Assembly (NCBI GenBank): GCA_016188495.1
Contig: JACPHU010000006.1
Coordinates: forward strand, 1,857 to 65,856
DNA from: Candidatus Uhrbacteria bacterium
Lineage (GTDB): Bacteria; Patescibacteriota; Patescibacteriia; UBA9934; GWF2-40-263
Length of the DNA stretch: 64,000 bases
Reading direction: 5' to 3'
The notes under the pieces: generated by a model
The model's database searches: none
Seen by the model: the letters and a program-made list of their open reading frames with translations, nothing else
What the model was told of the DNA's origin: nothing
Translations under genes and position numbers: made by a program
Shown: one piece after another, positions 24,805 to 60,890 of the stretch
Layout of the letters: each line of letters opens with the position of its first letter
Position numbering within the stretch: position 1 is the stretch's first letter

Positions 24805-24881
24805 GGGCGTGTAGCTCAGGTGGTTAGAGCGCAACACTGATAATGTTGAGGTCGGAGGTTCGAGTCCTCCCACGCCCACCA
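24805..24881 (+). tRNA. tRNA-Ile (anticodon GAT)
   Basis: The acceptor stem is GGGCGTG/CACGCCC. The D-arm is AGCTCAGGTGGTTAGAGC, the anticodon loop is CTGATAA and the T-loop is GGTTCGAGTCC. The 3' end is A-CCA. Confidence 0.9.
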
Positions 24882-25016
24882 CCCTACACTCTGGCTGTGT
24901 TCATCAGGGCCAGAGTGTAGGGTGGTCACCCATAGCCTCCCAGGCGACGGGTGACGTAAATCGTCGCCAGAGTTTCGGGTGGCCTTCGGCCAGATAGAAT
25001 AGGAAAGATACATCTT

Positions 25017-25091
<75 letters not shown>

Positions 25092-27412: not shown

Positions 27413-28910
<1,498 letters not shown>

Positions 28911-51338: not shown

Positions 51339-51367
51339 TTGACAAAAACACTGAAATCGGGTATAGT
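51339..51367 (+). promoter_or_regulatory. consensus sigma70 promoter driving the GC-rich island
   Basis: TTGACA, an exact 17-nt spacer, then TATAGT, followed by a ~160-nt leader. Confidence 0.55.
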
Positions 51368-51530
51368 GCTCTCTTCGTTCATTGGCAAAGTCTGGCTTGC
51401 CACGCCTTAAATACTCTTACATCAAAGTATTTAGAGCGCGGTAAGTCAGTAATAAAAAAAGTAGTTGATAGTCACCGGCATGGTTGTTGGTGGCTCAGAA
51501 ATCCAATCCCGAAAGGGAAGGAGAAAGCAA

Positions 51531-52613
51531 ATGTTGAATGAACAGTTCAAGGTCGCTCTGGTTGCCGAAGGTGTCAACGAGGAGAATCTCAAGCTCCTCG
51601 AGTCTCAGGAGCTGTGTGATGTCAGCGATTTCGCGACCCTGCAGCCTGCGGATCTGACTGTCGTCGGAATGAAGCTCGGTGGGATCAATAAGGTCTTCAG
51701 GGTTGTTCGAAGACTGGCGGCTCCCGTGGCCTCCACTCCGGCTCCGGAAGTTCAGATTCCCGTGACTCAGGTGACCCCGGTGTCCCTTCCTCCGGTCGTT
51801 CCGGTTCAGGTGGCTCCCGTGGCCCATGCTCCGGTTTCCTCCGGTGGGGGAGATCTGGGTACGCTGTTTTCGACGCTGATTCCGCCCCAGACCCCGCAGG
51901 AAGCGGCCGAAAGGCTCTGTCGTGCCCCGAGTGACGCAAAGAGCCAGGAGTACTGGAGGCAGTTCTTCGGTCAGGAGACCCTGATCGTCTCCTCGACTCC
52001 GGGCTCCATCGATCGCGACAAGACCATGGAAGCGGTCGAAATCTGGGTGACCTCCGGTGAGGCTCCTTCGGAGCTCGATGGAGTGCCTCTGCTGAGCATC
52101 AGCGAGTTCCTCCAGTCCACCTTCGGTGCGTGCCCCTTCACCGGGGACCGTATCATCCGAGGTGGGATGTCGCTGAAGACCAACGTTCACTACGGGTTCT
52201 TGCTCGGGAATGATGTTTCGCTCTCGGCGATCCAGAATAGCCCCGGAATGAACTTCGTGGCGTTCGCCGCCGAAACCGGCAAGATCACCCGCGACCTTCA
52301 GACCTGGAAGACGCGGATGCTCGAGCTTCGCAGCATGGTCCAGGGCAAGGATATCTCCAGCCCCACGGCCATCAAGGCGGCCGTCGCCGGATCCGCGTGG
52401 GATGAAGTCGCGACCGACTACATCCGTGACGCCAATTCCGGTGGTGTCGTCGCCATGCGCGCTCGGGCACGGCTGGTGACCCAGGCCAAGCGACGGACCG
52501 TTCGGGCCCGCAACGACCTGTCGGGAATCGGAGAGGCTCTGACCTCCGGTTTCGACAAGGTCACCCGCCAGGACGGCTCCGTCCCCCGTCGGGATTTCGA
52601 ATCCCGCGGCTGA
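51531..52613 (+). CDS. island gene A: hypothetical protein (small N-terminal domain, Pro/Val-rich linker, unknown C-terminal domain)
   Basis: A GGAAGGAG RBS precedes ATG 51531. Its GC3 is much higher than the backbone. The linker is APVASTPAPEVQIPVTQVTPVSLPPVVPVQVAPVAHAPV. A terminator follows at 52728-52752. Confidence 0.65.
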   Translation: MLNEQFKVALVAEGVNEENLKLLESQELCDVSDFATLQPADLTVVGMKLGGINKVFRVVRRLAAPVASTPAPEVQIPVTQVTPVSLPPVVPVQVAPVAHAPVSSGGGDLGTLFSTLIPPQTPQEAAERLCRAPSDAKSQEYWRQFFGQETLIVSSTPGSIDRDKTMEAVEIWVTSGEAPSELDGVPLLSISEFLQSTFGACPFTGDRIIRGGMSLKTNVHYGFLLGNDVSLSAIQNSPGMNFVAFAAETGKITRDLQTWKTRMLELRSMVQGKDISSPTAIKAAVAGSAWDEVATDYIRDANSGGVVAMRARARLVTQAKRRTVRARNDLSGIGEALTSGFDKVTRQDGSVPRRDFESRG

Positions 52614-52727
52614 TAGATCGATCAACTCCGTCGGTTCCGACCATGACGGCGCAAGGGTAGCACTCAGTGCCCGGTGTCTGGTTGGACCTTCGGCCATTAC
52701 TCTATTACCCCTACGAAGGGAGTCCCC

Positions 52728-52752
52728 TGGACTCCCTTTTTCACTAGGCGAT
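52728..52752 (+). terminator. intrinsic terminator after island gene A
   Basis: The hairpin gggagtcc/ggactccc is followed by a T6 run. Confidence 0.7.
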
Positions 52753-52856
52753 TTATTTTCAAAATGAATCGTGTAGCGAAAGCATGTAGGCTTTCAATCA
52801 GTATTTTAGATCGGTCCTTTTGGATCGATTGTGTTCACAACAAAGGAGAGAATTCA

Positions 52857-54014
52857 ATGTCCAAACCCAATGAACTCAGACATGACAACCTAGTAATCGG
52901 GGTGAATTTTCCGGTCAAGTCGACTAACGCCGGGACAGGGTTGGTGGGTGGCTTCCCCTGGCCGGTACACAATGCGGCCGACTATAAGGACCGTGTTCCT
53001 GCCGCGTGGTTATCGGCCATGGGGCCTCGTCATGTGATCTTTTTCCTGGGTGCACCTGACCCGACCCGTCATTTTGATGAACAGGGTCTTGCCGAGCACG
53101 AGGTGGAACTGGATCAGAACGGCTGTCCCCGCGATCGTGAGATGTGGTTTGATTTTCAGGGGATGAATACCCTTGATCGTCACGTTGCTGTTGTGCTCGG
53201 TGTCCAGGGACTCAATGCTCTGACCGGACTTCCGACTTCTTCGGAACACAAGAGAGGACTGTACAACGGTCCCGGGTGTCCGAAACCCGAGCAGTATCCG
53301 GATGTTTGTCCGGTGCACGGTACCCCGTTCGAAGATCATCGGCGGATGTGTTCGGACTGTGGGTTCGAGTGGCCGTATCAGAATTACGTCACCAACTCCG
53401 TGACCGATCCAATGTTCCGCTTCTGGTGGGATGGGTGGCGCGGGGCGGACGGCAAGATCCAGCAATTCGCCATGCGTCCGGCTTCGGCTGGTGTCGGCGT
53501 GGCCCAGCAGGTGCTGGGCGAGGATCGTGCGCTGGGACTGAGTCTGGCTGTGTTTCTCAAGAAGCGACCCAAGCCGGCTCCGGTTTCCTCCTATCGTCAC
53601 TCCGATTTCCTCGAGTCTGACATCGTTTCCAAAGGGTTTTTGGGAGGTGGTGGAAAGAAGGTCTATTCTTTTGGAATGGGCGGAGAAGAGGAGGAAGAGG
53701 TGTATCGTTCGCCCACCCTCGGAACCACACGCGAGGCCACTCGTGGAGACACTACTCGAGGTGGTGTCCTGGGCGGCCGTCCTTCCGTTTCTCGGATCGG
53801 TGCTCCGTCTCGGATGGAGTTCGTCGCCGGTCGAACGGTCTTTCAGAAACTCTATTCCGATAATTCCACCCTGGACGAGTGGAGGGATGAACCCGAGGTG
53901 ACCTTCACCTTGATTCCCGTGGACATGGCGTGGGCGGCCGAGGTAACCAAGTACGGTCCCACCACGCGACAAGTTGCCACCGGACCGTTCGCGGGTCTCA
54001 AGAGCGTCGGCTGA
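52857..54014 (+). CDS. island gene B: hypothetical protein (Cys/His cluster, Gly-rich low-complexity segment)
   Basis: An AAAGGAGAG RBS precedes ATG 52857. It contains CPVHGTPF...CSDCGFEW and FWWDGWRGADG, which match no recognized family. It is GC-rich. Confidence 0.6.
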   Translation: MSKPNELRHDNLVIGVNFPVKSTNAGTGLVGGFPWPVHNAADYKDRVPAAWLSAMGPRHVIFFLGAPDPTRHFDEQGLAEHEVELDQNGCPRDREMWFDFQGMNTLDRHVAVVLGVQGLNALTGLPTSSEHKRGLYNGPGCPKPEQYPDVCPVHGTPFEDHRRMCSDCGFEWPYQNYVTNSVTDPMFRFWWDGWRGADGKIQQFAMRPASAGVGVAQQVLGEDRALGLSLAVFLKKRPKPAPVSSYRHSDFLESDIVSKGFLGGGGKKVYSFGMGGEEEEEVYRSPTLGTTREATRGDTTRGGVLGGRPSVSRIGAPSRMEFVAGRTVFQKLYSDNSTLDEWRDEPEVTFTLIPVDMAWAAEVTKYGPTTRQVATGPFAGLKSVG

Positions 54015-54164
54015 TTTCCGACGTAACACGGTCAAGATCGATTCCCACGGAGTCGGCCCTTGACCCTTTTCTTGGGAAGAGAAGAGGAGTAATCCTTTGG
54101 CTCTTCTGAAGAGAAGAAATTTGCTTTCGACCTTTACAAATGAAGTTGAGATAAGGAGGTTTAG

Positions 54165-55004
54165 ATGAAAGGCAATAACACAGAGGCGACCTACTATCCT
54201 GGTAAGTCAGTGGCGAAAACCCCGCATTATGAGCTGTTTTACTGTGAGACCGAGAACGGTCGGCAGTGTCTCATGCAGATCGCTAAAGCACCGGAACACA
54301 ACGGGGTACTCGATCGGTTCGCATATGTGCTGCGCGAGCTCAAGCATAAGGCAGACGAGCTCGAAGAAGAACATGAAGAGAAGAAAAAGGATCCTGCTAA
54401 TGGGATTCCTGCTCACGTGTTCTTGAATTACGATCTTGGTTTCCCCCAGGTCGTCGACAGTTTCATCAGTTCCGAACAGGGTGGATGTCGAATCAATATC
54501 TTGGCCTTTAGGGAAGTTGAGCGCGTGTCTGACATGCACCCTCTGGCAAAGTATATTCGAGTGGCCAATGAGCGGTGCGATCTGCGAACCAGTATCTGGA
54601 TCATGGGCAGGACGCTCAAGTTGATCGATCTGGTGCATATGATGGGATTTTCTCTTCAGGAGATGAAGACAGGTAATATTCTCATTCAGCCTGAAGAACA
54701 TCACGTTGTGCTGTTTAATCCTGGCATTCAAATGTGTCCGGGAGAAGTTCCTTTGGAACAGCGGCGCAAGGAGATTGCTCAGGCGACCACGTCGGTTATT
54801 CAGTTGTTGGGCGGCAATATTCTTACACGAGAATTCCCCCAAGATCTCAAGTCGGAGATTGGGTGTAAGGAATATACGGATCATCTCCTCATGCTGGCCG
54901 CCGGAGGAGAATACGACGCCCATGCGGCGTATCGTCGTTTCTATCAGCTTATTGATCGGTTTTGGGAGCGGAAGTTTCATCGTGCTCAGTTTTTGGCACG
55001 CTGA
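54165..55004 (+). CDS. island gene C: protein-kinase-fold-like protein lacking the catalytic Asp residues (possible pseudokinase or atypical nucleotide-binding enzyme)
   Basis: A TAAGGAGG RBS is present. CLMQIAK resembles the beta3 Lys segment. HMMGFSLQEMKTGNILIQPEEHHVVLFNPG resembles the catalytic loop plus DFG region, with D replaced by Q and by N. Confidence 0.55.
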   Translation: MKGNNTEATYYPGKSVAKTPHYELFYCETENGRQCLMQIAKAPEHNGVLDRFAYVLRELKHKADELEEEHEEKKKDPANGIPAHVFLNYDLGFPQVVDSFISSEQGGCRINILAFREVERVSDMHPLAKYIRVANERCDLRTSIWIMGRTLKLIDLVHMMGFSLQEMKTGNILIQPEEHHVVLFNPGIQMCPGEVPLEQRRKEIAQATTSVIQLLGGNILTREFPQDLKSEIGCKEYTDHLLMLAAGGEYDAHAAYRRFYQLIDRFWERKFHRAQFLAR

Positions 55005-55040
55005 AAATAGACGAAACATGAACGAAAAGGGAGAGAAAAA

Positions 55041-56180
55041 ATGGGAAATCGTACCCCGTCTCGTGATACGTATGAAGAGGCAAAATCGACATATGTTCCG
55101 GATTCTGGACCTGCTACAGCTCGCGCTGAACAACAAGCGCGAAGGACAGGAAAACTTCATCCGCTGGTTGATCCGGCGGAATTCGGAGTGATCCGCCCTT
55201 CGCATATGCGAATGAAACAGCTTCTAAACGGGCTTTGGTCTGTGAATGTAGGAACACCATTGCCACGTCAGCGGCGCGTAGATACGACGGCCAGTATGGG
55301 TAATAACGTCGATGTGGTTCTTGGTGTCTTGCAGGATGCGTACGAGCTGGCTATGCAGGTTCTGCCTGTTGGGTATGACCTGCAGGAAGCCAATGAGATC
55401 TTCGGAGATATACAAGATAGGTTTGTGCTTTGCCGTTCGCAGTTTGAGATGCTCTCTGAGCGGATCGTGGAGCAGCTGACCTTGATGGTTCCTGAGCGTG
55501 ATGGCGGAGATGTTCCAGAAGACCCTCACTACGGGTTGTTTGGAGCAGCCTACTTGACCGATGCCTATATTAATCGCATCGGTCTTAAGGGTTACGACTT
55601 CACCGTCTCTGATGCAGAGGCTCGATACGAGTTGGAGGCACGACATCTTCGTCGAATTTTCGGAGATCAGGTCTTCGATAAGACGAAGGAAAACGGTTAC
55701 GATATTGATCCTCGGCATCTTCCCAGCACCAAAGAGGTGGTTCGTGAGCTTGCCAAACGATCTCATTATTTCTTCCTTCAGATCAAGTCCTCTTCACAGG
55801 CGACTCGTTTCTGGACGGATGTGTTCGGTTCTGAACGGGTCGTGCTGGTACCAGATGCCAAATATGTCCCTCATATTGAAGCCGTGATCATGGGTCTGAC
55901 CGAAGGGACCCTGAGTCTGTCGGACGTCACTCCGTTTCTCATGAAGAATGGCGTCGATCGCAATGACGCTCAACGAATCGTCCGGGCTGTGGGACATATT
56001 CCGATCGGCGCGCAGGCTGCTTTGCCCAACGTTGCCCGGCGTCCCAAAGCAGGTGACCTGTTTCGAGAGAAGCCTGTCGGTACGCAGACCAGTCCTTGGC
56101 CGCTGACCCCCGAGGAAATCGCCGCGTTTAATCTCGACTCTTCGGCAGAGCAGGACGAAGGCGAGATCAGCTGGGTCTGA
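55041..56180 (+). CDS. island gene D: hypothetical protein (379 aa)
   Basis: An AAAAGGGAGAG RBS is present. It is GC-rich and has no recognizable motif. Confidence 0.6.
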   Translation: MGNRTPSRDTYEEAKSTYVPDSGPATARAEQQARRTGKLHPLVDPAEFGVIRPSHMRMKQLLNGLWSVNVGTPLPRQRRVDTTASMGNNVDVVLGVLQDAYELAMQVLPVGYDLQEANEIFGDIQDRFVLCRSQFEMLSERIVEQLTLMVPERDGGDVPEDPHYGLFGAAYLTDAYINRIGLKGYDFTVSDAEARYELEARHLRRIFGDQVFDKTKENGYDIDPRHLPSTKEVVRELAKRSHYFFLQIKSSSQATRFWTDVFGSERVVLVPDAKYVPHIEAVIMGLTEGTLSLSDVTPFLMKNGVDRNDAQRIVRAVGHIPIGAQAALPNVARRPKAGDLFREKPVGTQTSPWPLTPEEIAAFNLDSSAEQDEGEISWV

Positions 56181-56188
56181 GGTAACAA

Positions 56189-56233
56189 CCCGCCCGACTG
56201 AACGACGAGGAGTTCTGTTCAGTCGTTCGGGCA
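56189..56233. repeat. family-A GC-rich hairpin repeat, copy 3, directly after island gene D
   Basis: It reads cccgcccgactgaacgacg-aggagttctg-ttcagtcgttcgggca. Confidence 0.7.
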
Positions 56234-56238
56234 AGCGC

Positions 56239-56286
56239 GGTCGAAGTGATTCCATAGGGAGTCATTTCGACCTTTTTTTGAAGAGA
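56239..56286 (+). terminator. intrinsic terminator
   Basis: The hairpin ggtcgaa...ttcgacc is followed by a T7 run. Confidence 0.65.
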
Positions 56287-56408
56287 GAAAAGAATAGAGA
56301 ATAGTCTTTTTACTCTCTTGAAAAGAAGGAAGTGTTGAATCGATACGGCCTTCGATAGGCTCAGGCAATAATGAGGTTTTTCAACATTTTTCATTGAGGA
56401 GATGATCC

Positions 56409-57785
56409 ATGGTCAGTAATGTTATTGTCCCCACCGACCATGGTCCTGGGGACGGTGGCAAGGGCGGAGTCGTTCATCGACTTTGTTGCGATCGTCGAGT
56501 CCATACCGTTTTGAAAGAAGGGATGTTTTGCGGTAATCATGGGATCTGTACGGCTACAGGGCAGCGTTATGCCTTTAGTTTGTGGGGATGCGGAACGTTG
56601 GGAGGCGTGAGGACTCACTTTACTCAGCGATTTGTTGCCTCGGCCGTTGGGCTCCTTAATGAAGCGCGAGATTTGCGATATTTATTTGGAATTCATGATC
56701 CCTTTGAGTTGCTTACGATAGACGAACGCACCCTGTTTGCCACGTCTTATCACGGCTTCATGTCGCGTCTGAAGGAACTTGCTCTGGGGAAGAATCCGCG
56801 CGGGACCGTTGGCACAGGAGCAGGCGCTGGTTATCGCGATGCGCAGCGAGTTCCGGAACTGGCTCTTTATGCTCGAGATTTGTCACGACCGGATTTGAGA
56901 GATCGTCTCGCTGCTGTTCGTGAACAGGTTATTCGTGATCTGGAGCCGATCATTCAGAATGGGTTTCTTCCGGAGGATCAGGAAGCAGCCGATCAAGAGA
57001 TCAGTCATCTGTATGATGATGGATTTCTCGAGTATGTTGTGGATCAATTCCGGCAGGTAGCACGTCTGGTCAAAGTCGTGGGGCCTGAATATCTGGGTCA
57101 AGAGATTCTTTCCAAAGACGGCGTTGTCGTCGTGGAAAAGTCTCACGGCATTCTGACGGACCATTATCAGGGTTTCCATCCGCACACCAGTGCGATTCGG
57201 ACATTGCCGTCTTTCACGCGCTCAATGCTCGAAGAGGCTGAGTACCGCGGACGGATCACGGATATTGCGGTGCATCGGGCGTATCAAATCCGTCACGGTG
57301 CAGGACCCATGCCAACGCATGATCCTGCCATGGGCGAGCACTTGTTGCCTGGCAGCAACAAGGATGAAAATCGCTACCAGGGCAAGGTCCGCGTGGGACC
57401 GCTTGATCTGGTGATGCTACGCTACGCCCTTGCCTGTGCGGGCCCTATGAACGGCCTCGCCCTCACTTGGTTTGATCAGGTTCAGCTCAACGGCGAGTGG
57501 AACATTTGTCACCGTTACCGTGGGGCAGATGATCCACGATTCTTTACACCAGAGGGCGAGATCAAGGTTCGACAGGGGGATGACGAAGATCAGCTTGCTC
57601 ACCAAGAAGCTCTTGGCAAAGCGTTGCTGGAAGTCACTCCTGAGATCACGACCTACCCAATCTCCAAGAACGCTTCGCGCGAAGAGCTGTACAAACTGTG
57701 TACGGACATCCTTCAGGAACATCTTGGAATCCCCGTAAGAATGATTTCGTTTGGCCCTACCGAACGAGACAAACTTTGCAAATAA
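56409..57785 (+). CDS. island gene E: highly divergent adenylosuccinate synthetase (PurA)-family protein
   Basis: It aligns by eye to PurA landmarks. VIVPTDHGPGDGGKGGVVHRL corresponds to VVLGTQWGDEGKGKIVDLL. GTVGTGAGAGYRDAQRV corresponds to GTTGRGIGPAYEDKVAR. EKSHGILTDHYQGFHPHTSA corresponds to [21 protein letters not shown]. The C-terminal ISFGPTERD corresponds to ISTGPDRTE. Several catalytic positions are altered. Confidence 0.7.
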   Translation: MVSNVIVPTDHGPGDGGKGGVVHRLCCDRRVHTVLKEGMFCGNHGICTATGQRYAFSLWGCGTLGGVRTHFTQRFVASAVGLLNEARDLRYLFGIHDPFELLTIDERTLFATSYHGFMSRLKELALGKNPRGTVGTGAGAGYRDAQRVPELALYARDLSRPDLRDRLAAVREQVIRDLEPIIQNGFLPEDQEAADQEISHLYDDGFLEYVVDQFRQVARLVKVVGPEYLGQEILSKDGVVVVEKSHGILTDHYQGFHPHTSAIRTLPSFTRSMLEEAEYRGRITDIAVHRAYQIRHGAGPMPTHDPAMGEHLLPGSNKDENRYQGKVRVGPLDLVMLRYALACAGPMNGLALTWFDQVQLNGEWNICHRYRGADDPRFFTPEGEIKVRQGDDEDQLAHQEALGKALLEVTPEITTYPISKNASREELYKLCTDILQEHLGIPVRMISFGPTERDKLCK

Positions 57786-57789
57786 AAAC

Positions 57790-57830
57790 GACCCGAGCAG
57801 TCACGACGACCGCTCGGGTTTTTCTTTTTT
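57790..57830 (+). terminator. intrinsic terminator ending the island
   Basis: The hairpin cccgagc/gctcggg is followed by a T5 run, then an AT-rich tract. Confidence 0.7.
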
Positions 57831-57859: not shown

Positions 57860-59743
57860 CTACTCACTACCTTTTTCTTTGGATACTTTCGGCAGAAAAA
57901 CATTTCTTACAAATAATTTCGTTGCTGTCTGTCGATATCCGGAATCCCAGAACATGCTTTGCCCATCAATCTGATCGGCATGGGGTGTTTGGATGCCTCC
58001 ATACGAAGGAAAAAAGCGTTCATATCCTTTGTGCATCAAACGGTATTGCAGGGTGTCGCGTTCTAATTCTTCCAAGTAGAGACCTCTGGCTTGGCGGCCA
58101 TGAATGGCGTTTGTCGGATCATCCGTCAAATAAGGCACCAGCAGTTTTTTACGCATGTCTTGTATGGCCCGCGTGTTACCTTCCCAAGCTGCTCCAAAAA
58201 GAACATGCGTCCAGGAACGTTCGCCCATGAACGGTTCAGATGTTTTTAGATCATTGCGAATCGTGAGCGTGTCTCCAGAGGTTTCAAGCCAAAATTGCAC
58301 AGCATCTCCTTCGATTCGTTCGTGAATAAATATGCGTTTCAGAAGATTTCGTATCTCTTCTTTTTGTTCCATCGGCGTTCCGGGTTTAACAAACACCGCG
58401 ACATCGATGTCGGAGTTTTGTGAACCGTATTTAAGCCTTGATCCAAATAAGAGAATAATAGGATAAACATATTTGGACAGTTCAGGATCTTTTTCTATGG
58501 CATGCGCGATATCGTTTATCTCGCGCAATTCTTTTTTCATCAGTTTGAGATTTTCAGAAAATGGTCCCTCGAGTGTGGGTAGAGAGATGTCTAACACACG
58601 AAGTTCTTTTTCATCCACCACATCTAGGCGATAGAGCCGGCGGAATGTTTTAGAAAGAGACTCTCGCAGATCAAAGGTTTCCTGTTCCTTCCAAAGATTT
58701 ATGAGGGTTCCATGGAACTGTTCGTACATTCTTTTTGCTTTTTCTGTATCCGTGTGCGCGATTTCTTCGATGGCTTTTCGGATTCCTTCAACGAGCGCTT
58801 TCTGGGTTTCAAGATGTACGTCTGGCGCAAGAAAGGCCTTTGCTGTTTCTTCACCAAACGTTTGGGTGACGACGACTGTTTTGATTCCCTCGCTCACTGC
58901 TTCGATAGATTTTCGTTTTTTTTCCTGTCTCATCCATGCCGTACGTTTTTTTGTTTCATATTCTTCTGTATCAATTTGCGCAAAGTCTCGTCCTAGACGC
59001 GCTTGGATTGATTCTAAGGTGATGGGTTTGATTTCCGGGATTTCTTTTTTTAGTGATTGAGTCTCTTGGGGAAAAAATCCTAGATCTGCCAACACAGGGA
59101 GTGTCTCTGTAATACTTTGTTTTAAGATGTTGTCTTCCGTCGTCTCTTTGAGGTCTGACACTTCCTGTGTTGTCATGAGACCTTTTTCAACAAGTTTTGG
59201 AATCAGGTGCGCCGCTTTCACGACCCGCGGAAGATCTCCGGTGCGCAGTTCTACTTCCATCACGTCACCATCCACAAAATTCGCACGAACATCCTGGATA
59301 CTCAACAATCGTTTCCACGTGTTCATGTAGACGTCTTTGAATCGTTCCATGGCGGGACGAAGAGTATCTGATGCAGGTTTCCAACTTGAATCAGGAAGAA
59401 ATTCAAAAGGGAGATACAAAAGGATTCGTCTATATTCAGGATAGGTTTCAAGAAGATCACTTACTGAAGTATAGAGATCCTCGATTTGGCCTTCTGTCAG
59501 GCAATGCTGTTCGACGGCTTCTTGAAGCGAAACATCGGGTCGTGGAAGACGATCTATCACAACCGTTAGCCGTTCATTGAGAACTCTGCGCGATTCTAAT
59601 TCCCCTAGAAATTCTTTGTTGTGTGAGAGCTCTTTAGCCCAGGTGTTTTCAAGCCCTGTTGGACGCAAAAAGGTCTCAATCGCCGGAGAAACCACAGGGA
59701 TTTTAGGTTCCATTTCAGCTCTTTGTTCTAAATTTTCTTTCAT
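57860..59743 (-). CDS. large hypothetical protein with a C-terminal Pol-beta-superfamily nucleotidyltransferase domain
   Basis: The NTase signature is LLFGSRLKYGSQNSDIDVAVFV (GS...DxD). Codon usage is backbone-like. The N-terminal ~430 aa is helical and of unknown function. Confidence 0.7.
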   Translation of the reverse strand: MKENLEQRAEMEPKIPVVSPAIETFLRPTGLENTWAKELSHNKEFLGELESRRVLNERLTVVIDRLPRPDVSLQEAVEQHCLTEGQIEDLYTSVSDLLETYPEYRRILLYLPFEFLPDSSWKPASDTLRPAMERFKDVYMNTWKRLLSIQDVRANFVDGDVMEVELRTGDLPRVVKAAHLIPKLVEKGLMTTQEVSDLKETTEDNILKQSITETLPVLADLGFFPQETQSLKKEIPEIKPITLESIQARLGRDFAQIDTEEYETKKRTAWMRQEKKRKSIEAVSEGIKTVVVTQTFGEETAKAFLAPDVHLETQKALVEGIRKAIEEIAHTDTEKAKRMYEQFHGTLINLWKEQETFDLRESLSKTFRRLYRLDVVDEKELRVLDISLPTLEGPFSENLKLMKKELREINDIAHAIEKDPELSKYVYPIILLFGSRLKYGSQNSDIDVAVFVKPGTPMEQKEEIRNLLKRIFIHERIEGDAVQFWLETSGDTLTIRNDLKTSEPFMGERSWTHVLFGAAWEGNTRAIQDMRKKLLVPYLTDDPTNAIHGRQARGLYLEELERDTLQYRLMHKGYERFFPSYGGIQTPHADQIDGQSMFWDSGYRQTATKLFVRNVFLPKVSKEKGSE

Positions 59744-59959: not shown

Positions 59960-60890
59960 ATGGATCCACGAGAACTCACAGACAACGAACGCCGTCTCGC
60001 CGTACCCGAAGAGAAGCGAACCGGGATTATCCTGCTCATCAAGCAGGTATTGCTCCTGGATACTCTGGAGCAAGCAGCTTCTTTCTTCGTTGCTCTGCGC
60101 GGTCGCGCCGAAGGGCGAGTTGTGCTGACCTTCGGAGAACTTCGCACCTTGGCCAACACCGCCAAGATCGTTCAGGCGGGTGCGAAAGCGGGTATCGAGG
60201 ATGTGGAGAGCCAGGCAGTGGATTTTGCCGACGTCCTGGCCTCTATCGCTGATCCCAACATGCCCATCTGCGAGAAATGTCACCGCTATGCGGTTGACGT
60301 GGAAGGCAGTGTTGTCACCCTTATCAAGGGAGTTCGTTGCCCCCGGTCTTTACGAGATCAGTGACCTGGTTCGCGACGCTCTGGAACAGGAGGGACTCAA
60401 GACCGAGGAAGGGGAGATTAATGTGGCTCACTTCCTCATGTATCTGGCCCATGATCCTTCCGTCGCTTCCCGTTTCCGAGGCAAGGACGAGGTGCTCGTA
60501 TCATTGGGTAGGCCGAGTATGTTCGGAGCCTATGATCTGACCTCGGTTCGCGCCGAAGTGAGGAAGGGGTGGAAGCCCACCTTTGGCAACGAGACGCCGC
60601 CTCCCGTTCAGAAGAAGGCGAGTTCCGGTGCTCCTCTTTCTCTGACTCGGGAACAGATAAAGATTTTGAGGAAGATCCTCGGTGAGCTAATCTATGATCC
60701 CTCTGCCATCAGAATGGTCGTCGAAGACGCAGGTCTTATCGTATGGAGGATTGAGATAAGCGGAGTGCCAGAAATAATTTGGGAGAACATCATCAAGGAG
60801 GCAGACAAAGAGGTGCGTCTGCGTGCTTTGATCGAGACGCTCAGTGAGCGTTACCCCGCCAATCAGACGCTGAAGTCTTTTCTCAACTGA
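59960..60890 (+). CDS. GC-rich hypothetical protein with a C-terminal effector-associated-domain-like (EAD-like) module, interrupted by a frameshift in a C5 homopolymer (60340-60344)
   Basis: A GGAGGAAG RBS is present. The upstream frame ends ...LIKGVRCP. The downstream frame continues GLYEISDLVRDALEQEGL with no start codon. The C-terminal part SLTREQIKILRKILGELIYDPSAIRMVVEDAGLIVWRIEISGVPEIIWENIIKEADKEVRLRALIETLSERYPAN fits the EAD-style pattern. Confidence 0.5.

What the first reader, a model, noticed from the sequence alone, without database searches (positions are those of the whole stretch)
56409..57785. Highly divergent PurA (adenylosuccinate synthetase) paralog with altered active-site positions
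The protein keeps the PurA fold landmarks: an N-terminal Gly-rich loop, the GTxGxGxGxxY loop, the xGxxGxxxDxxHGxYPxxTS block, and the C-terminal ISxGPxR segment.

The P-loop reads GDGGKGG instead of GDEGKGK. The GGHNAGH block is replaced by CGNHGICT.

Established knowledge: PurA paralogs have been recruited for non-canonical chemistry. The PurZ enzymes of Z-genome phages use dGMP instead of IMP.

Inference: this enzyme probably ligates aspartate, or another amine, to a nucleotide other than IMP. Or it is a regulatory pseudoenzyme inside the island.
Basis: partly seen in the sequence, partly recalled or inferred. Interest (0 to 1): 0.7.

Follow-up and report, generated by a model that had tools for sequence, protein, structure and literature searches.

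The report
PurA-like enzyme in conserved CPR module
This gene is a remodelled relative of the purine enzyme PurA that has lost its usual substrate sites and always sits in a five-gene cluster found across a huge group of tiny uncultured bacteria and, in part, in about 200 mycobacterial viruses, which points to a widespread but still unknown biochemical function.

Summary
ORF 56409-57785 (+, 458 aa) has the adenylosuccinate-synthetase fold (Pfam PF00709, E 5e-28) but scores far below every PurA equivalog cut-off (66 vs 395 bits).

It keeps the GTP and catalytic core: D13, K16, H41, D333 and S414 (E. coli numbering). The IMP 5'-phosphate ligands and the aspartate ligands are replaced by other, equally conserved residues.

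It is not PurZ. The Asp13-to-Ser change that marks PurZ is absent, and the family profile scores 4 bits on phiVC8 PurZ.

The window comes from a Candidatus Uhrbacteria genome. The protein belongs to a large clade (1802 cluster representatives at E<=1e-30). Across CPR bacteria it sits in a strictly syntenic module:
- A: pseudokinase.
- B: vWA protein.
- C: the PurA-like enzyme.
- D: SAM-domain protein.
- E: nucleotidyltransferase.

A-B-C also occurs in about 200 cluster C mycobacteriophages. Natural C-E fusion proteins exist. The module lies next to NAD genes (NrtR, NadE, PncA/B, NadD, ADP-ribosylglycohydrolase) in 22 of 82 loci.

Best reading: an active GTP-dependent PurA-type ligase with a new acceptor and a new nucleophile, working inside this module. 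The substrate is unknown, and I found no literature on it.

The parts
51339..51367 (+). Sigma-70-type promoter-like site (TTGACA-17-TATAGT, 11 of 12 matches) upstream of gene D. It is the likely start of the D-X-A-B transcript.
   Evidence: This is a consensus match only. Similar TTGACA-N17-TGGTAGxxT sites lie upstream of gene A in other loci.
51465..52613 (+). Gene D, window variant (382 aa). It has an N-terminal SAM/HhH-like domain, a variable middle and a C-terminal 'DLSGIG' motif. In most other genomes D lies after C.
   Evidence: Motif comparison with D1 and D2 proteins. In the D2 family, 17 of 27 members hit Pfam SAM_TNK, the best at 2e-6. There is a weak polyhomeotic SAM match in PDB.
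52674..54014 (+). Gene X, an accessory ORF of 446 aa (the true start may be further downstream). It lies in a stretch of about 58% GC and has a zinc-ribbon-like motif, CPVH...CSDCG. It is found only here and in L022.
   Evidence: It has no Pfam, PHROGs or PADLOC match.
54165..55004 (+). Gene A (279 aa), a protein-kinase-like fold that lacks the catalytic residues, so a pseudokinase.
   Evidence: The profile of 31 homologues hits the CK2alpha catalytic-loop region at E 3e-7. The HRD Asp position is variable, the beta3 Lys is present in 11 of 31, and the DFG position is Asp in 22 and Asn in 9 of 31. It is homologous to phage I3 gp270 'kinase' at E 1e-23.
55041..56180 (+). Gene B (379 aa), a vWA-domain protein with an intact MIDAS-type motif (D81-T-T-G-S85). 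The family has conserved N-terminal ('MGxxTFSRxxY') and C-terminal ('W-L') ends.
56239..56272 (+). Terminator-like hairpin (15-bp stem followed by a T-run) in the unusually long 228-nt spacer between B and C.
   Evidence: Pattern match only; its function was not tested.
56409..57785 (+). Gene C (458 aa), the finding: a PurA-superfamily protein with the catalytic and GTP core kept and the IMP and aspartate sites rebuilt.
57791..57819 (.). Terminator-like hairpin between the convergent genes C and E. The scan reported it on the minus strand, with a 13-bp stem and a T-run.
57860..59743 (-). Gene E (627 aa). It combines an N-terminal all-helical (HEAT-like) region with an MNT/Pol-beta-type nucleotidyltransferase core (G434-S435...D445-x-D447) and a conserved C-terminal helical region ('LQYRLMHKGY').

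Best explanation
Gene C encodes an active, GTP-dependent enzyme of the PurA (BioD-like, SIMIBI P-loop) superfamily that no longer makes adenylosuccinate.

It keeps the machinery PurA uses to transfer the gamma-phosphate of GTP onto an oxygen of its acceptor. That machinery is the P-loop Lys, the Asp13 base and Mg ligand, the His41 acid, and the guanine-recognising Asp333 and Ser414. The pockets for IMP and L-aspartate have been rebuilt with a different, strictly conserved set of residues.

The most likely chemistry is therefore PurA-type. GTP phosphorylates an oxygen, and a nitrogen nucleophile then displaces the phosphate. The acceptor is something other than IMP, and the nucleophile is something other than free aspartate.

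The enzyme does not work alone. It is the catalytic member of a conserved module with a vWA protein (B) and a pseudokinase (A), plus, in CPR bacteria, a SAM-domain protein (D) and a Pol-beta-type nucleotidyltransferase (E). E probably makes or uses the same nucleotide-linked intermediate. The module is functionally tied to NAD/ADP-ribose metabolism.

What is shown: fold, residue conservation, synteny, fusion, the phage homologues, and the enrichment of NAD genes as neighbours. What is inferred: catalytic activity, complex formation, the type of chemistry, and the NAD/ADPR link to the substrate.
For: Core residues are retained in all 43 family sequences examined: G12, D13, G15, K16, G17, H41 (as H44) and D333. 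S414 is retained in 41 of 43 (HMMER mapping).

Substrate sites are replaced by equally invariant residues:
- N38 to Q in 41 of 43 (Cys in the window protein).
- T129 to I or V.
- R131 to T.
- R143 to E or D.
- Q224 to H in 43 of 43.
- V273 to H in 43 of 43.
- T300/T301 to (Y/W)-Q.
- 'GRRRRTG' to 'GKVRVG', which loses R303 and R305.

The same signature runs through 150 representatives of a clade with 1802 clusters at E<=1e-30. This amounts to purifying selection on a new pocket.

Synteny A-B-C-D-E holds in about 70 of 80 CPR loci spanning Saccharibacteria, Paceibacterota, Uhr-, Falkow-, Peri-, Moranbacteria and others. Cluster C mycobacteriophages carry A, B and C homologues side by side: gp270 at E 1e-23, gp271 at 2e-17 and gp273 at 1e-65, with about 200 phage records matching C. 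A second vWA + PurA-like pair of the phage type lies in L024. The order kinase-vWA-C-D recurs in the distant locus L095.

Natural C-E fusion proteins P0388 and P0427 match the E profile over its full length at 448 and 417 bits.

The top recurrent neighbours are NrtR (19 loci), NadE (9), and ADP-ribosylglycohydrolase, PncB, PncA and NadD (6 each). In all, 22 of 82 loci have at least one NAD-related neighbour. For NrtR, P is about 1e-12 to 1e-15 if loci are treated as independent.
Against: - No substrate, product or complex has been observed; activity is inferred from conservation only.
- The partners (vWA, pseudokinase, SAM, helical repeats) are protein-interaction modules. They would fit a regulatory or scaffolding machine as well as an enzyme complex.
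- The NAD link is absent in 60 of 82 loci, including the window, and in the phage, L093 and L095 contexts. No shared NrtR operator was found upstream of gene A.
- The loci are phylogenetically related, so the enrichment P-value is optimistic.
- The window protein itself carries Cys instead of the family's Gln at the N38 position and has a perturbed 40s loop.
- In the C-E fusions the P-loop is GEETK[SG], with D13 to E and G15 to T. Strict conservation of the base is therefore not universal across the clade.
Confidence: 0.55

Rival explanations
1. GTP-binding regulatory pseudoenzyme or molecular switch. C binds or hydrolyses GTP, and perhaps senses a nucleotide ligand, to control assembly or activity of the vWA-pseudokinase-SAM-NTase complex. 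It does not ligate anything.
For: - All partners are interaction or scaffold domains.
- PurA belongs to the SIMIBI P-loop class, which also contains switch NTPases (own knowledge).
- A is itself a pseudoenzyme.
- The C-E fusions have a degenerate P-loop, GEETK[SG].
- The window copy has an atypical 40s loop.
Against: - The base (D13) and acid (H41) used for phosphoryl transfer to an acceptor are invariant in the CPR family.
- The acceptor and nucleophile pockets are not degraded but replaced by invariant His246, His296, Tyr/Trp323, Gln324, Arg328 and Ser261. Such conservation is more typical of a catalytic site, although a ligand-sensing pocket would also be conserved.
Confidence: 0.2
2. Small-molecule NAD-salvage or NAD-repair enzyme. 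C applies PurA-type chemistry to an NAD-related nucleotide. One possibility is activating the C1''-OH of ADP-ribose with GTP so that nicotinamide displaces phosphate to re-form NAD+, a one-enzyme analogue of phage NARP1. Another is acting on NaMN, NaAD or nicotinamide hypoxanthine dinucleotide. This is a specific sub-case of the best explanation.
For: - NrtR, which in studied bacteria represses NAD genes and is released by ADP-ribose (own knowledge), directly abuts the module in about 10 loci.
- NadE, PncA, PncB, NadD and ADP-ribosylglycohydrolase are the other recurrent neighbours.
- In L005 the module sits between nadA and nadE.
- Two of the four IMP 5'-phosphate ligands are conservatively kept (Q41, S261). 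T129 and the trans-subunit R143 are removed, which could open the site for a dinucleotide (inference).
- Phages are known to carry NAD-reconstitution pathways (own knowledge of NARP1 and NARP2).
Against: - There are no NAD genes near the module in the window, in phage I3, in L093 or in L095.
- A metabolic enzyme would not obviously need a vWA protein, a pseudokinase and a SAM-domain protein.
- The CPR loci already encode a complete PncA-PncB-NadD-NadE salvage route.
- The proposal is chemically unprecedented for this fold.
Confidence: 0.15
3. A genuine but fast-evolving housekeeping adenylosuccinate synthetase of CPR bacteria, as the databases annotate it.
For: - NCBI and JGI name it adenylosuccinate synthetase.
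- It has the PF00709 fold over its full length.
- The GTP site and the catalytic Asp and His are kept.
- No other purA was seen in the sequence available.
Against: - It scores 66 bits against a 395-bit equivalog cut-off.
- The aspartate ligands R303, R305, T301 and R131 are lost. The IMP-phosphate ligands T129 and R143 are also lost, R143 with a charge reversal to Glu.
- There is no purB in 1.56 Mb of flanking CPR DNA, although purA and purB are not normally linked.
- The family is about 60% identical across CPR classes. It is therefore not fast-evolving but conserved in its altered state.
- It is obligately syntenic with a vWA protein and a pseudokinase, and it is shared with phages.
- CPR bacteria generally lack purine biosynthesis (own knowledge).
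Confidence: 0.06
4. PurZ-like enzyme that makes 2-aminoadenine (Z) precursors from dGMP.
For: - PHROGs places it in phrog_1211, which is named '2-aminooxy adenylosuccinate synthetase'.
- RefSeq gives the mycobacteriophage homologues the same name.
Against: - The Asp13-to-Ser change that marks PurZ is absent.
- The family profile scores 4 bits on phiVC8 PurZ.
- PurZ chains do not appear in the PDB profile search at E<=1.
- No DatZ, MazZ or DpoZ-type neighbours are present.
- The aspartate site is lost.
Confidence: 0.02

Closest known systems
Adenylosuccinate synthetase PurA (E. coli; PDB 1ade and related entries; EC 6.3.4.4)
   Same: The fold is the same (PF00709, end to end). The P-loop Gly-Asp-x-Gly-Lys-Gly, catalytic Asp13 and His41, guanine-specificity Asp333 and the Ser414-x-Gly-Pro segment are kept. 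So GTP use and phosphoryl transfer to an acceptor oxygen probably remain.
   Different: It is about 25% identical. E14 and K18 become Gly. N38 becomes Q (C in the window), T129 becomes V or I, R131 becomes T, R143 becomes E, Q224 becomes H, T239 becomes S and V273 becomes H. T300/T301 become Y-Q, R303 and R305 are lost, and K331 becomes W. It always has a vWA and a pseudokinase gene as neighbours, and no link to purB.
'PurA-like adenylosuccinate synthetase' of cluster C mycobacteriophages (Bixzunavirus, e.g. phage I3 gp273), function unknown
   Same: This is the closest characterisable relative: 27% identity over 95% of the query, and the family profile scores 213 bits. It shares the clade signature (N38 to Q, V273 to H, W-Q in place of T300-T301, loss of R303 and R305, K331 to H). 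It also has the same upstream partners, a kinase-like gp270 and a vWA gp271.
   Different: The phage type keeps Gln224 (EGAQG) and has a GDAGKGT P-loop. No D or E genes were found in the phage regions examined. The phage kinase-like protein has an N-terminal J-domain-like HPD motif. The CPR type has His at position 224.
PurZ / PurZ0 (2-aminoadenylosuccinate synthetase of Z-genome phages; PDB 6FM1, 7ODX, 7VF6)
   Same: It is also a PurA-superfamily member recruited for a non-IMP substrate, which is a precedent for re-targeting this fold.
   Different: PurZ has Ser in place of Asp13, keeps an aspartate site, and is shorter (343 aa in phiVC8). It sits with DatZ, MazZ and DpoZ. It has no significant sequence similarity to this family (4 bits).
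vWA + Ser/Thr kinase modules such as the TerY-P triad and the vWA-centred NTP-dependent conflict systems (own knowledge; Kaur et al. 2020, PMC7159879)
   Same: A vWA protein with an intact MIDAS is encoded next to a kinase-fold protein and an NTP-binding protein. An EAD1-domain gene lies 440 bp beyond gene E in the window.
   Different: Here the kinase is catalytically dead and there is no PP2C phosphatase, MoxR or STAND NTPase. The NTP-binding partner is a PurA-fold protein. The module is conserved in synteny across CPR lineages rather than patchy. PurA is not mentioned in that paper, and nothing matched in PADLOC.

Membership tests
Canonical adenylosuccinate synthetase (PurA, EC 6.3.4.4) | PF00709 fold over the full length | tested here: met
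   Pfam E 5e-28, profile positions 8-413 of 416
Canonical adenylosuccinate synthetase (PurA, EC 6.3.4.4) | Reaches the curated equivalog score (TIGR00184 / NF002223) | tested here: not met
   65.8 bits against 395.55, and 63.2 bits against 402
Canonical adenylosuccinate synthetase (PurA, EC 6.3.4.4) | Catalytic Asp13, Lys16 and His41 | tested here: met
   D15, K18 and H44 are invariant in the family
Canonical adenylosuccinate synthetase (PurA, EC 6.3.4.4) | IMP 5'-phosphate ligands Asn38, Thr129, Thr239 and Arg143 (from the other subunit), and the O6 contact Gln224 | tested here: not met
   In the window these are C41 (family Q), V134, S261, E150 and H246. The roles of the E. coli residues are from own knowledge of the AdSS structures.
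Canonical adenylosuccinate synthetase (PurA, EC 6.3.4.4) | L-aspartate ligands Arg303, Arg305 and Thr301, plus Arg131 and Thr300 | tested here: not met
   K326, deletion or V327, Q324, T136 and Y323. One Arg (R328) remains and aligns with R306. The alignment of this loop is uncertain by one residue.
Canonical adenylosuccinate synthetase (PurA, EC 6.3.4.4) | Guanine recognition by Lys331, Asp333 and Ser414 | tested here: inconclusive
   D356 and S447 are kept, but K331 is W354 (TWFD in place of TKLD)
Canonical adenylosuccinate synthetase (PurA, EC 6.3.4.4) | Catalyses IMP + Asp + GTP to adenylosuccinate | not testable with these tools
   Needs an enzyme assay or purA complementation
PurZ / PurZ0 | Asp13 replaced by Ser (100% of 147 phage PurZ sequences, PMC12884076) | tested here: not met
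   Asp is invariant here (GDGGKGG). phiVC8 PurZ reads GSTGKG.
PurZ / PurZ0 | Sequence clusters with PurZ | tested here: not met
   The family HMM scores 4.0 bits on phiVC8 PurZ, 61.9 on E. coli PurA and 212.7 on I3 gp273. No PurZ chain appears in the PDB profile search. No formal tree was built.
PurZ / PurZ0 | Neighbourhood with DatZ, MazZ, DUF550, DpoZ or DutZ/DmtZ | tested here: not met
   None of these appears among the neighbours in the window or in the related loci
Unnamed CPR / Bixzunavirus 'PurA-like' clade (defined here) | Signature: Gln at the N38 position, His at V273 ('RHGxGP'), (W/Y)-Q at T300-T301, T-[CHWN]-x-D at 330-333, and Asp13 and His41 kept | tested here: met
   The window has IRHGAGP, RYQGKVRVG, TWFD, D15 and H44. 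The exception is Cys instead of Gln at the N38 position, shared with its nearest relative P0002.
Unnamed CPR / Bixzunavirus 'PurA-like' clade (defined here) | Encoded directly after a vWA gene and a kinase-fold gene | tested here: met
   Window genes A (54165-55004) and B (55041-56180). The same arrangement holds in about 70 of 80 loci, in phage I3, and in L093 and L095.

The most novel reading that the evidence does not exclude
The five-gene module (pseudokinase, vWA, PurA-like ligase, SAM-domain protein, nucleotidyltransferase) is a previously undescribed enzymatic machine. It is conserved across the Candidate Phyla Radiation and its core has been borrowed by mycobacteriophages. In this reading the PurA fold has been re-targeted to install or rebuild a nucleotide-containing molecule linked to NAD/ADP-ribose. 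That molecule could be NAD itself, regenerated from ADP-ribose, or a nucleotide-based modification of a protein or RNA whose eraser is the neighbouring ADP-ribosylglycohydrolase. This would be a new reaction class for the PurA superfamily and a new core function of CPR bacteria.
Probability: 0.3. Interest if true: 0.85.

Novelty: new variant of a known kind. Interest (0 to 1): 0.7.

Why it matters
CPR/Patescibacteria make up a large share of bacterial diversity and have tiny genomes. Any multi-gene module kept in strict synteny at about 60% identity across the whole radiation is therefore likely to do something important. This one consists almost entirely of 'hypothetical' proteins plus one gene that databases mislabel as housekeeping purA.

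Showing that the PurA fold has been re-targeted a second time, after PurZ, would extend the known chemistry of this superfamily. Here the re-targeting comes with protein partners and a link to NAD metabolism.

The presence of the core triad in about 200 well-studied, genetically tractable mycobacteriophages gives an immediate experimental handle. So does its presence in naturally competent, culturable Saccharibacteria.

In practical terms, automated metabolic reconstructions that count this gene as PurA overstate the purine-salvage capacity of CPR genomes.

Tried and rejected
- **PurZ hypothesis:** rejected by the Asp13 test and by profile scores.
- **Known anti-phage defence system:** PADLOC gave only marginal hits, E 0.004-0.007, to unrelated models.
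- **PHROGs:** gave only the generic 'kinase' and PurZ-named families.
- **Literature:** searches pairing adenylosuccinate synthetase (or 'adenylosuccinate') with Patescibacteria, CPR, Saccharibacteria or NrtR, and 'PurA-like' alone or with vWA, found nothing functional. Kaur et al. 2020 does not mention PurA. The Saccharibacteria Tn-seq paper and its supplements do not mention the gene.
- **Shared NrtR operator upstream of gene A:** not found. One perfect 23-bp palindrome lies over the -35 in L011, but it does not recur. Inconclusive.
- **Sequence-profile searches against PDB:** B gave nothing and D gave only a weak SAM hit.
- **Viral contigs (IMG/VR) for B:** only two hits, and both carry the full CPR-type module, so they are probably CPR DNA.
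- **Gene X against phage gp274 (both have 'CSDCG'):** no real similarity.
- **P0406 C-terminal extension:** not recognised by the A profile or by Pfam.
Full report
**1. The observation**

The ORF is exactly as reported: 56409..57785, + strand, 458 aa, preceded by a GAGGAG ribosome-binding site. Pfam PF00709 (adenylosuccinate synthetase) matches end to end at E 5e-28. The best solved relatives are the E. coli and Yersinia AdSS structures, at E 1e-11 for the single sequence and 3e-16 for the family profile. The fold assignment is therefore secure.

The protein is nonetheless far from any housekeeping PurA. The NCBIfam purA equivalog scores 65.8 bits against a cut-off of 395.55.

One correction matters. 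The 'CGNHGICT' block still contains the catalytic histidine. HMMER aligns H44 with E. coli His41, and this His is invariant in the family. The odd 'MFCGN' stretch is a peculiarity of this sub-lineage, since the family consensus is 'GGAQGSHGV'. The window protein departs from 9 of 134 near-invariant family positions, against a median of 3.

**2. Organism and family**

The window is a bacterial chromosome segment with a 16S rRNA gene and four tRNA genes. An identical protein is on record from a Candidatus Uhrbacteria MAG.

The 120 best homologues are all about 460 aa and 57-67% identical. The few that a source names come almost all from CPR/Patescibacteria. A scan of GTDB species genomes returned 80 loci from Saccharibacteria (including host-associated Nanosyncoccus), Paceibacterota, and Uhr-, Falkow-, Peri-, Moran-, Davies-, Ryan- and Wildermuthbacteria, among others.

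An exhaustive profile search of 1.84 billion cluster representatives found 1802 with E<=1e-30. About 25 of these belong to the CPR core family, with scores above 330 bits. Below them is a broad continuum of more distant relatives at 250-330 bits.

**3. Active-site mapping**

Residue numbers are E. coli numbers without the initiator Met. Their functional roles come from my own knowledge of the AdSS structures.

| Group | E. coli residue | This family |
|---|---|---|
| Kept | G12, D13, G15, K16, G17, H41, D333 | invariant |
| Kept | S414 | 41 of 43 |
| Kept | T128, G416 | invariant |
| Kept | P417 | nearly invariant (39 of 43) |
| P-loop | E14 | G (42 of 43) |
| P-loop | K18 | G (42 of 43) |
| IMP 5'-phosphate | N38 | Q (41 of 43; Cys in the window) |
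| IMP 5'-phosphate | T129 | I or V |
| IMP 5'-phosphate | T239 | S |
| IMP 5'-phosphate, other subunit | R143 | E or D |
| IMP O6 contact | Q224 | H (43 of 43) |
| IMP ribose / Asp | V273 | H (43 of 43) |
| Aspartate site | R131 | T |
| Aspartate site | T300-T301 | (Y/W)-Q |
| Aspartate site | 'GRRRRTG' | 'GKVRVG', losing R303 and R305 |
| Guanine contact | K331 | W |

Across 150 representatives of the wider clade the same signature recurs:
- GG-x-Q-x-x-H in the His41 loop.
- 'TRHGAGP' where canonical PurA has 'TRVGAGP'.
- W-Q-G in the former aspartate loop.
- T-[C/H/W/N]-x-D at positions 330-333.
- E or D at the R143 position in 87 of 150.

This is a rebuilt pocket under selection, not decay. 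The GTP and phosphotransfer half of the enzyme looks intact. The IMP and aspartate halves do not.

**4. Not PurZ**

A 2026 study reports that all 147 phage PurZ/PurZ0 sequences replace Asp13 with Ser, while 99% of canonical PurA keep Asp (PMC12884076). This family keeps Asp. I fetched phiVC8 PurZ, whose P-loop reads GSTGKG. The family profile scores it 4 bits, against 62 bits for E. coli PurA and 213 bits for mycobacteriophage I3 gp273. No PurZ structure appeared in the PDB profile search.

**5. A conserved module**

HMMs built from five seed loci recover the same gene order, A, B, C, D on one strand and E convergent, in about 70 of the 80 loci.

- **A** is kinase-like. Its profile hits the CK2alpha catalytic loop at E 3e-7. 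It lacks the HRD Asp, has the beta3 Lys in only 11 of 31 sequences, and has Asn in place of the DFG Asp in 9 of 31. It is a pseudokinase.
- **D** has an N-terminal SAM/HhH-like domain, a variable body that occurs as types D1 and D2, and a conserved C-terminal '(D)L(S/T)GIG' motif.
- **E** (model pLDDT 88.4) combines a helical N-terminal region, which has only generic HEAT-like matches, with an MNT/Pol-beta nucleotidyltransferase core. The catalytic G-S...D-x-D motif is invariant.

In the window the order is rearranged. D (51465-52613) lies upstream and is followed by an accessory gene X (52674-54014). Then come A, B and a terminator-like hairpin, then C, then convergent E. L022 shows a similar variant.

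**6. Links that show the genes work together**

First, cluster C mycobacteriophages (Bixzunavirus) encode A, B and C homologues side by side:
- gp270 'kinase' matches A at E 1e-23.
- gp271 matches B over its full length at E 2e-17.
- gp273 matches C at E 1e-65.
- About 200 such phage records match C.

Second, locus L024 carries, beside the normal module, a second vWA + PurA-like pair of the phage type.

Third, a distant chromosomal locus, L095, again has kinase-like (HRC instead of HRD), vWA, C and then a D2 homologue.

Fourth, two representatives, P0388 (1129 aa) and P0427 (1102 aa), are natural C-E fusions. The E profile covers their C-terminal halves at 448 and 417 bits. In the P0388 locus (L093), A and B homologues lie upstream of the fusion gene.

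The vWA + PurA-like pair, usually with the pseudokinase, is therefore the core. D and E are additional partners, and the fusions tie E to C.

**7. Link to NAD metabolism**

I clustered all flanking genes of 82 loci. Apart from a generic ABC ATPase family, the most recurrent neighbours are all NAD-related:

| Neighbour | Loci |
|---|---|
| NrtR (Nudix + NrtR winged helix) | 19; within about 550 bp of A or E in about 10 |
| NadE | 9 |
| ADP-ribosylglycohydrolase | 6 |
| PncB | 6 |
| PncA | 6 |
| NadD | 6 |

In all, 22 of 82 loci have at least one NAD-related neighbour. For NrtR the chance expectation is about 2 loci, giving P of about 1e-12 to 1e-15 if loci were independent, which they are not fully. 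In L005 the module sits between nadB-nadA and nadE.

The association is absent in the window, in the phage and in the distant loci. I could not find a shared operator. The link is therefore real at the level of gene neighbourhood, but it is not universal and not mechanistically explained.

**8. Interpretation**

The best-supported reading is this. C is an active GTP-dependent enzyme that uses PurA-type chemistry, in which an oxygen is phosphorylated and a nitrogen nucleophile then displaces the phosphate. The acceptor is not IMP and the nucleophile is not free aspartate. The enzyme acts within a complex with the vWA protein and the pseudokinase, and cooperates with nucleotidyltransferase E. 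Its substrate is related in some way to NAD/ADP-ribose or to a nucleotide-bearing macromolecule.

Fold, conservation, synteny, fusion and neighbourhood are shown. Activity, complex formation and substrate class are inferred. I give this reading 0.55.

The main rival is a GTP-binding regulatory pseudoenzyme (0.2). A specific NAD-salvage reaction is an attractive sub-hypothesis (0.15). Genuine housekeeping PurA (0.06) and PurZ-like function (0.02) are unlikely. No purB or second purA was found in 1.56 Mb of window and flanking CPR DNA, but whole genomes could not be checked.

**9. Novelty**

I found no paper describing this clade or module. Databases call C 'adenylosuccinate synthetase', B 'hypothetical protein', and E either hypothetical or 'nucleotidyltransferase domain-containing protein'.

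I classify C as a new variant of a known kind, that is, a re-targeted PurA-superfamily enzyme. The module as a whole may turn out to be something new.

Noticed in passing
window 27415-28910 (-), 24805-25091 (+): A complete bacterial 16S rRNA gene (1450 bits) has no 23S or 5S rRNA match anywhere in the 64-kb window, so the rRNA genes appear to be unlinked. tRNA-Ile(GAT) and tRNA-Phe(GAA) lie about 2.3 kb away on the opposite strand.
   Followed up: no
window 60180-60890 (+): A 236-aa protein with a C-terminal EAD1 (effector-associated domain 1; Pfam E 4e-11) lies 440 bp beyond gene E. EAD1 is described as an adaptor in NTP-dependent conflict systems (PMC7159879). It is not a recurrent neighbour of the module in other loci.
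   Followed up: partly
window 52674-54014 (+): Accessory gene X lies in a stretch of about 58% GC, against about 45% for most of the window. It has a zinc-ribbon-like CPVH...CSDCG motif and a Gly/Glu-rich linker. A homologue occurs only in L022 (29% identity), which has a similarly rearranged module. It has no family match and is unrelated to phage I3 gp274 despite a shared 'CSDCG'.
   Followed up: partly
window 56181-56408, hairpin 56239-56272: The spacer between B and C is 228 nt here, against roughly 20-70 nt in the loci for which called genes were available. It contains a strong terminator-like hairpin (15-bp stem followed by T7). This suggests that C is transcribed or regulated separately in this organism.
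   Followed up: no
window 51495-52697 (-), 53010-54035 (-), 54207-55205 (-): Long antisense ORFs of 332-400 aa run opposite genes D, X and A. They have no family match, and similar antisense ORFs in other loci were clustering artefacts. They are most likely non-coding by-products of composition.
   Followed up: partly
L024 5217-6644 (-) and 6768-7775 (-): A second, phage-type vWA + PurA-like gene pair sits directly beside the regular CPR module in one Patescibacteria MAG. The pair is 37% and 33% identical to mycobacteriophage I3 gp273 and gp271.
   Followed up: yes
P0388, P0427 (L093 3421-6810): These are natural fusion proteins of the PurA-like domain with the full E (nucleotidyltransferase) protein. 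Their P-loop reads GEETK[SG], with Asp13 to Glu and Gly15 to Thr. P0406 fuses the PurA-like domain to an unidentified 230-aa C-terminal domain.
   Followed up: partly
L008 5418-6548 (phage I3 gp270): The phage homologue of pseudokinase A has an N-terminal extension with a J-domain-like 'HPD' motif (…SAVHPDRVP…). This hints at recruitment of the host Hsp70. A polynucleotide kinase, a HIT protein and a separate nucleotidyltransferase are encoded nearby.
   Followed up: no
L011 7736-7756: A perfect palindrome (full 23-bp form ATAAGTGTCTACTTGACACTTAT) overlaps the -35 box of the promoter of gene A, immediately downstream of an NrtR gene. It is a candidate operator. It was not found elsewhere in that locus, and no equivalent was recognised in other loci.
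   Followed up: partly
L010, L011, L012, L014, L022, L031, L055, L056 (record titles): Several MAGs that carry the CPR-type module are labelled 'uncultured Gammaproteobacteria', 'Fibrobacteres', 'Bdellovibrionales' or 'Omnitrophota'. Given 56-62% identity to CPR proteins and identical synteny, these labels are probably taxonomic mis-assignments or mixed bins.
   Followed up: no
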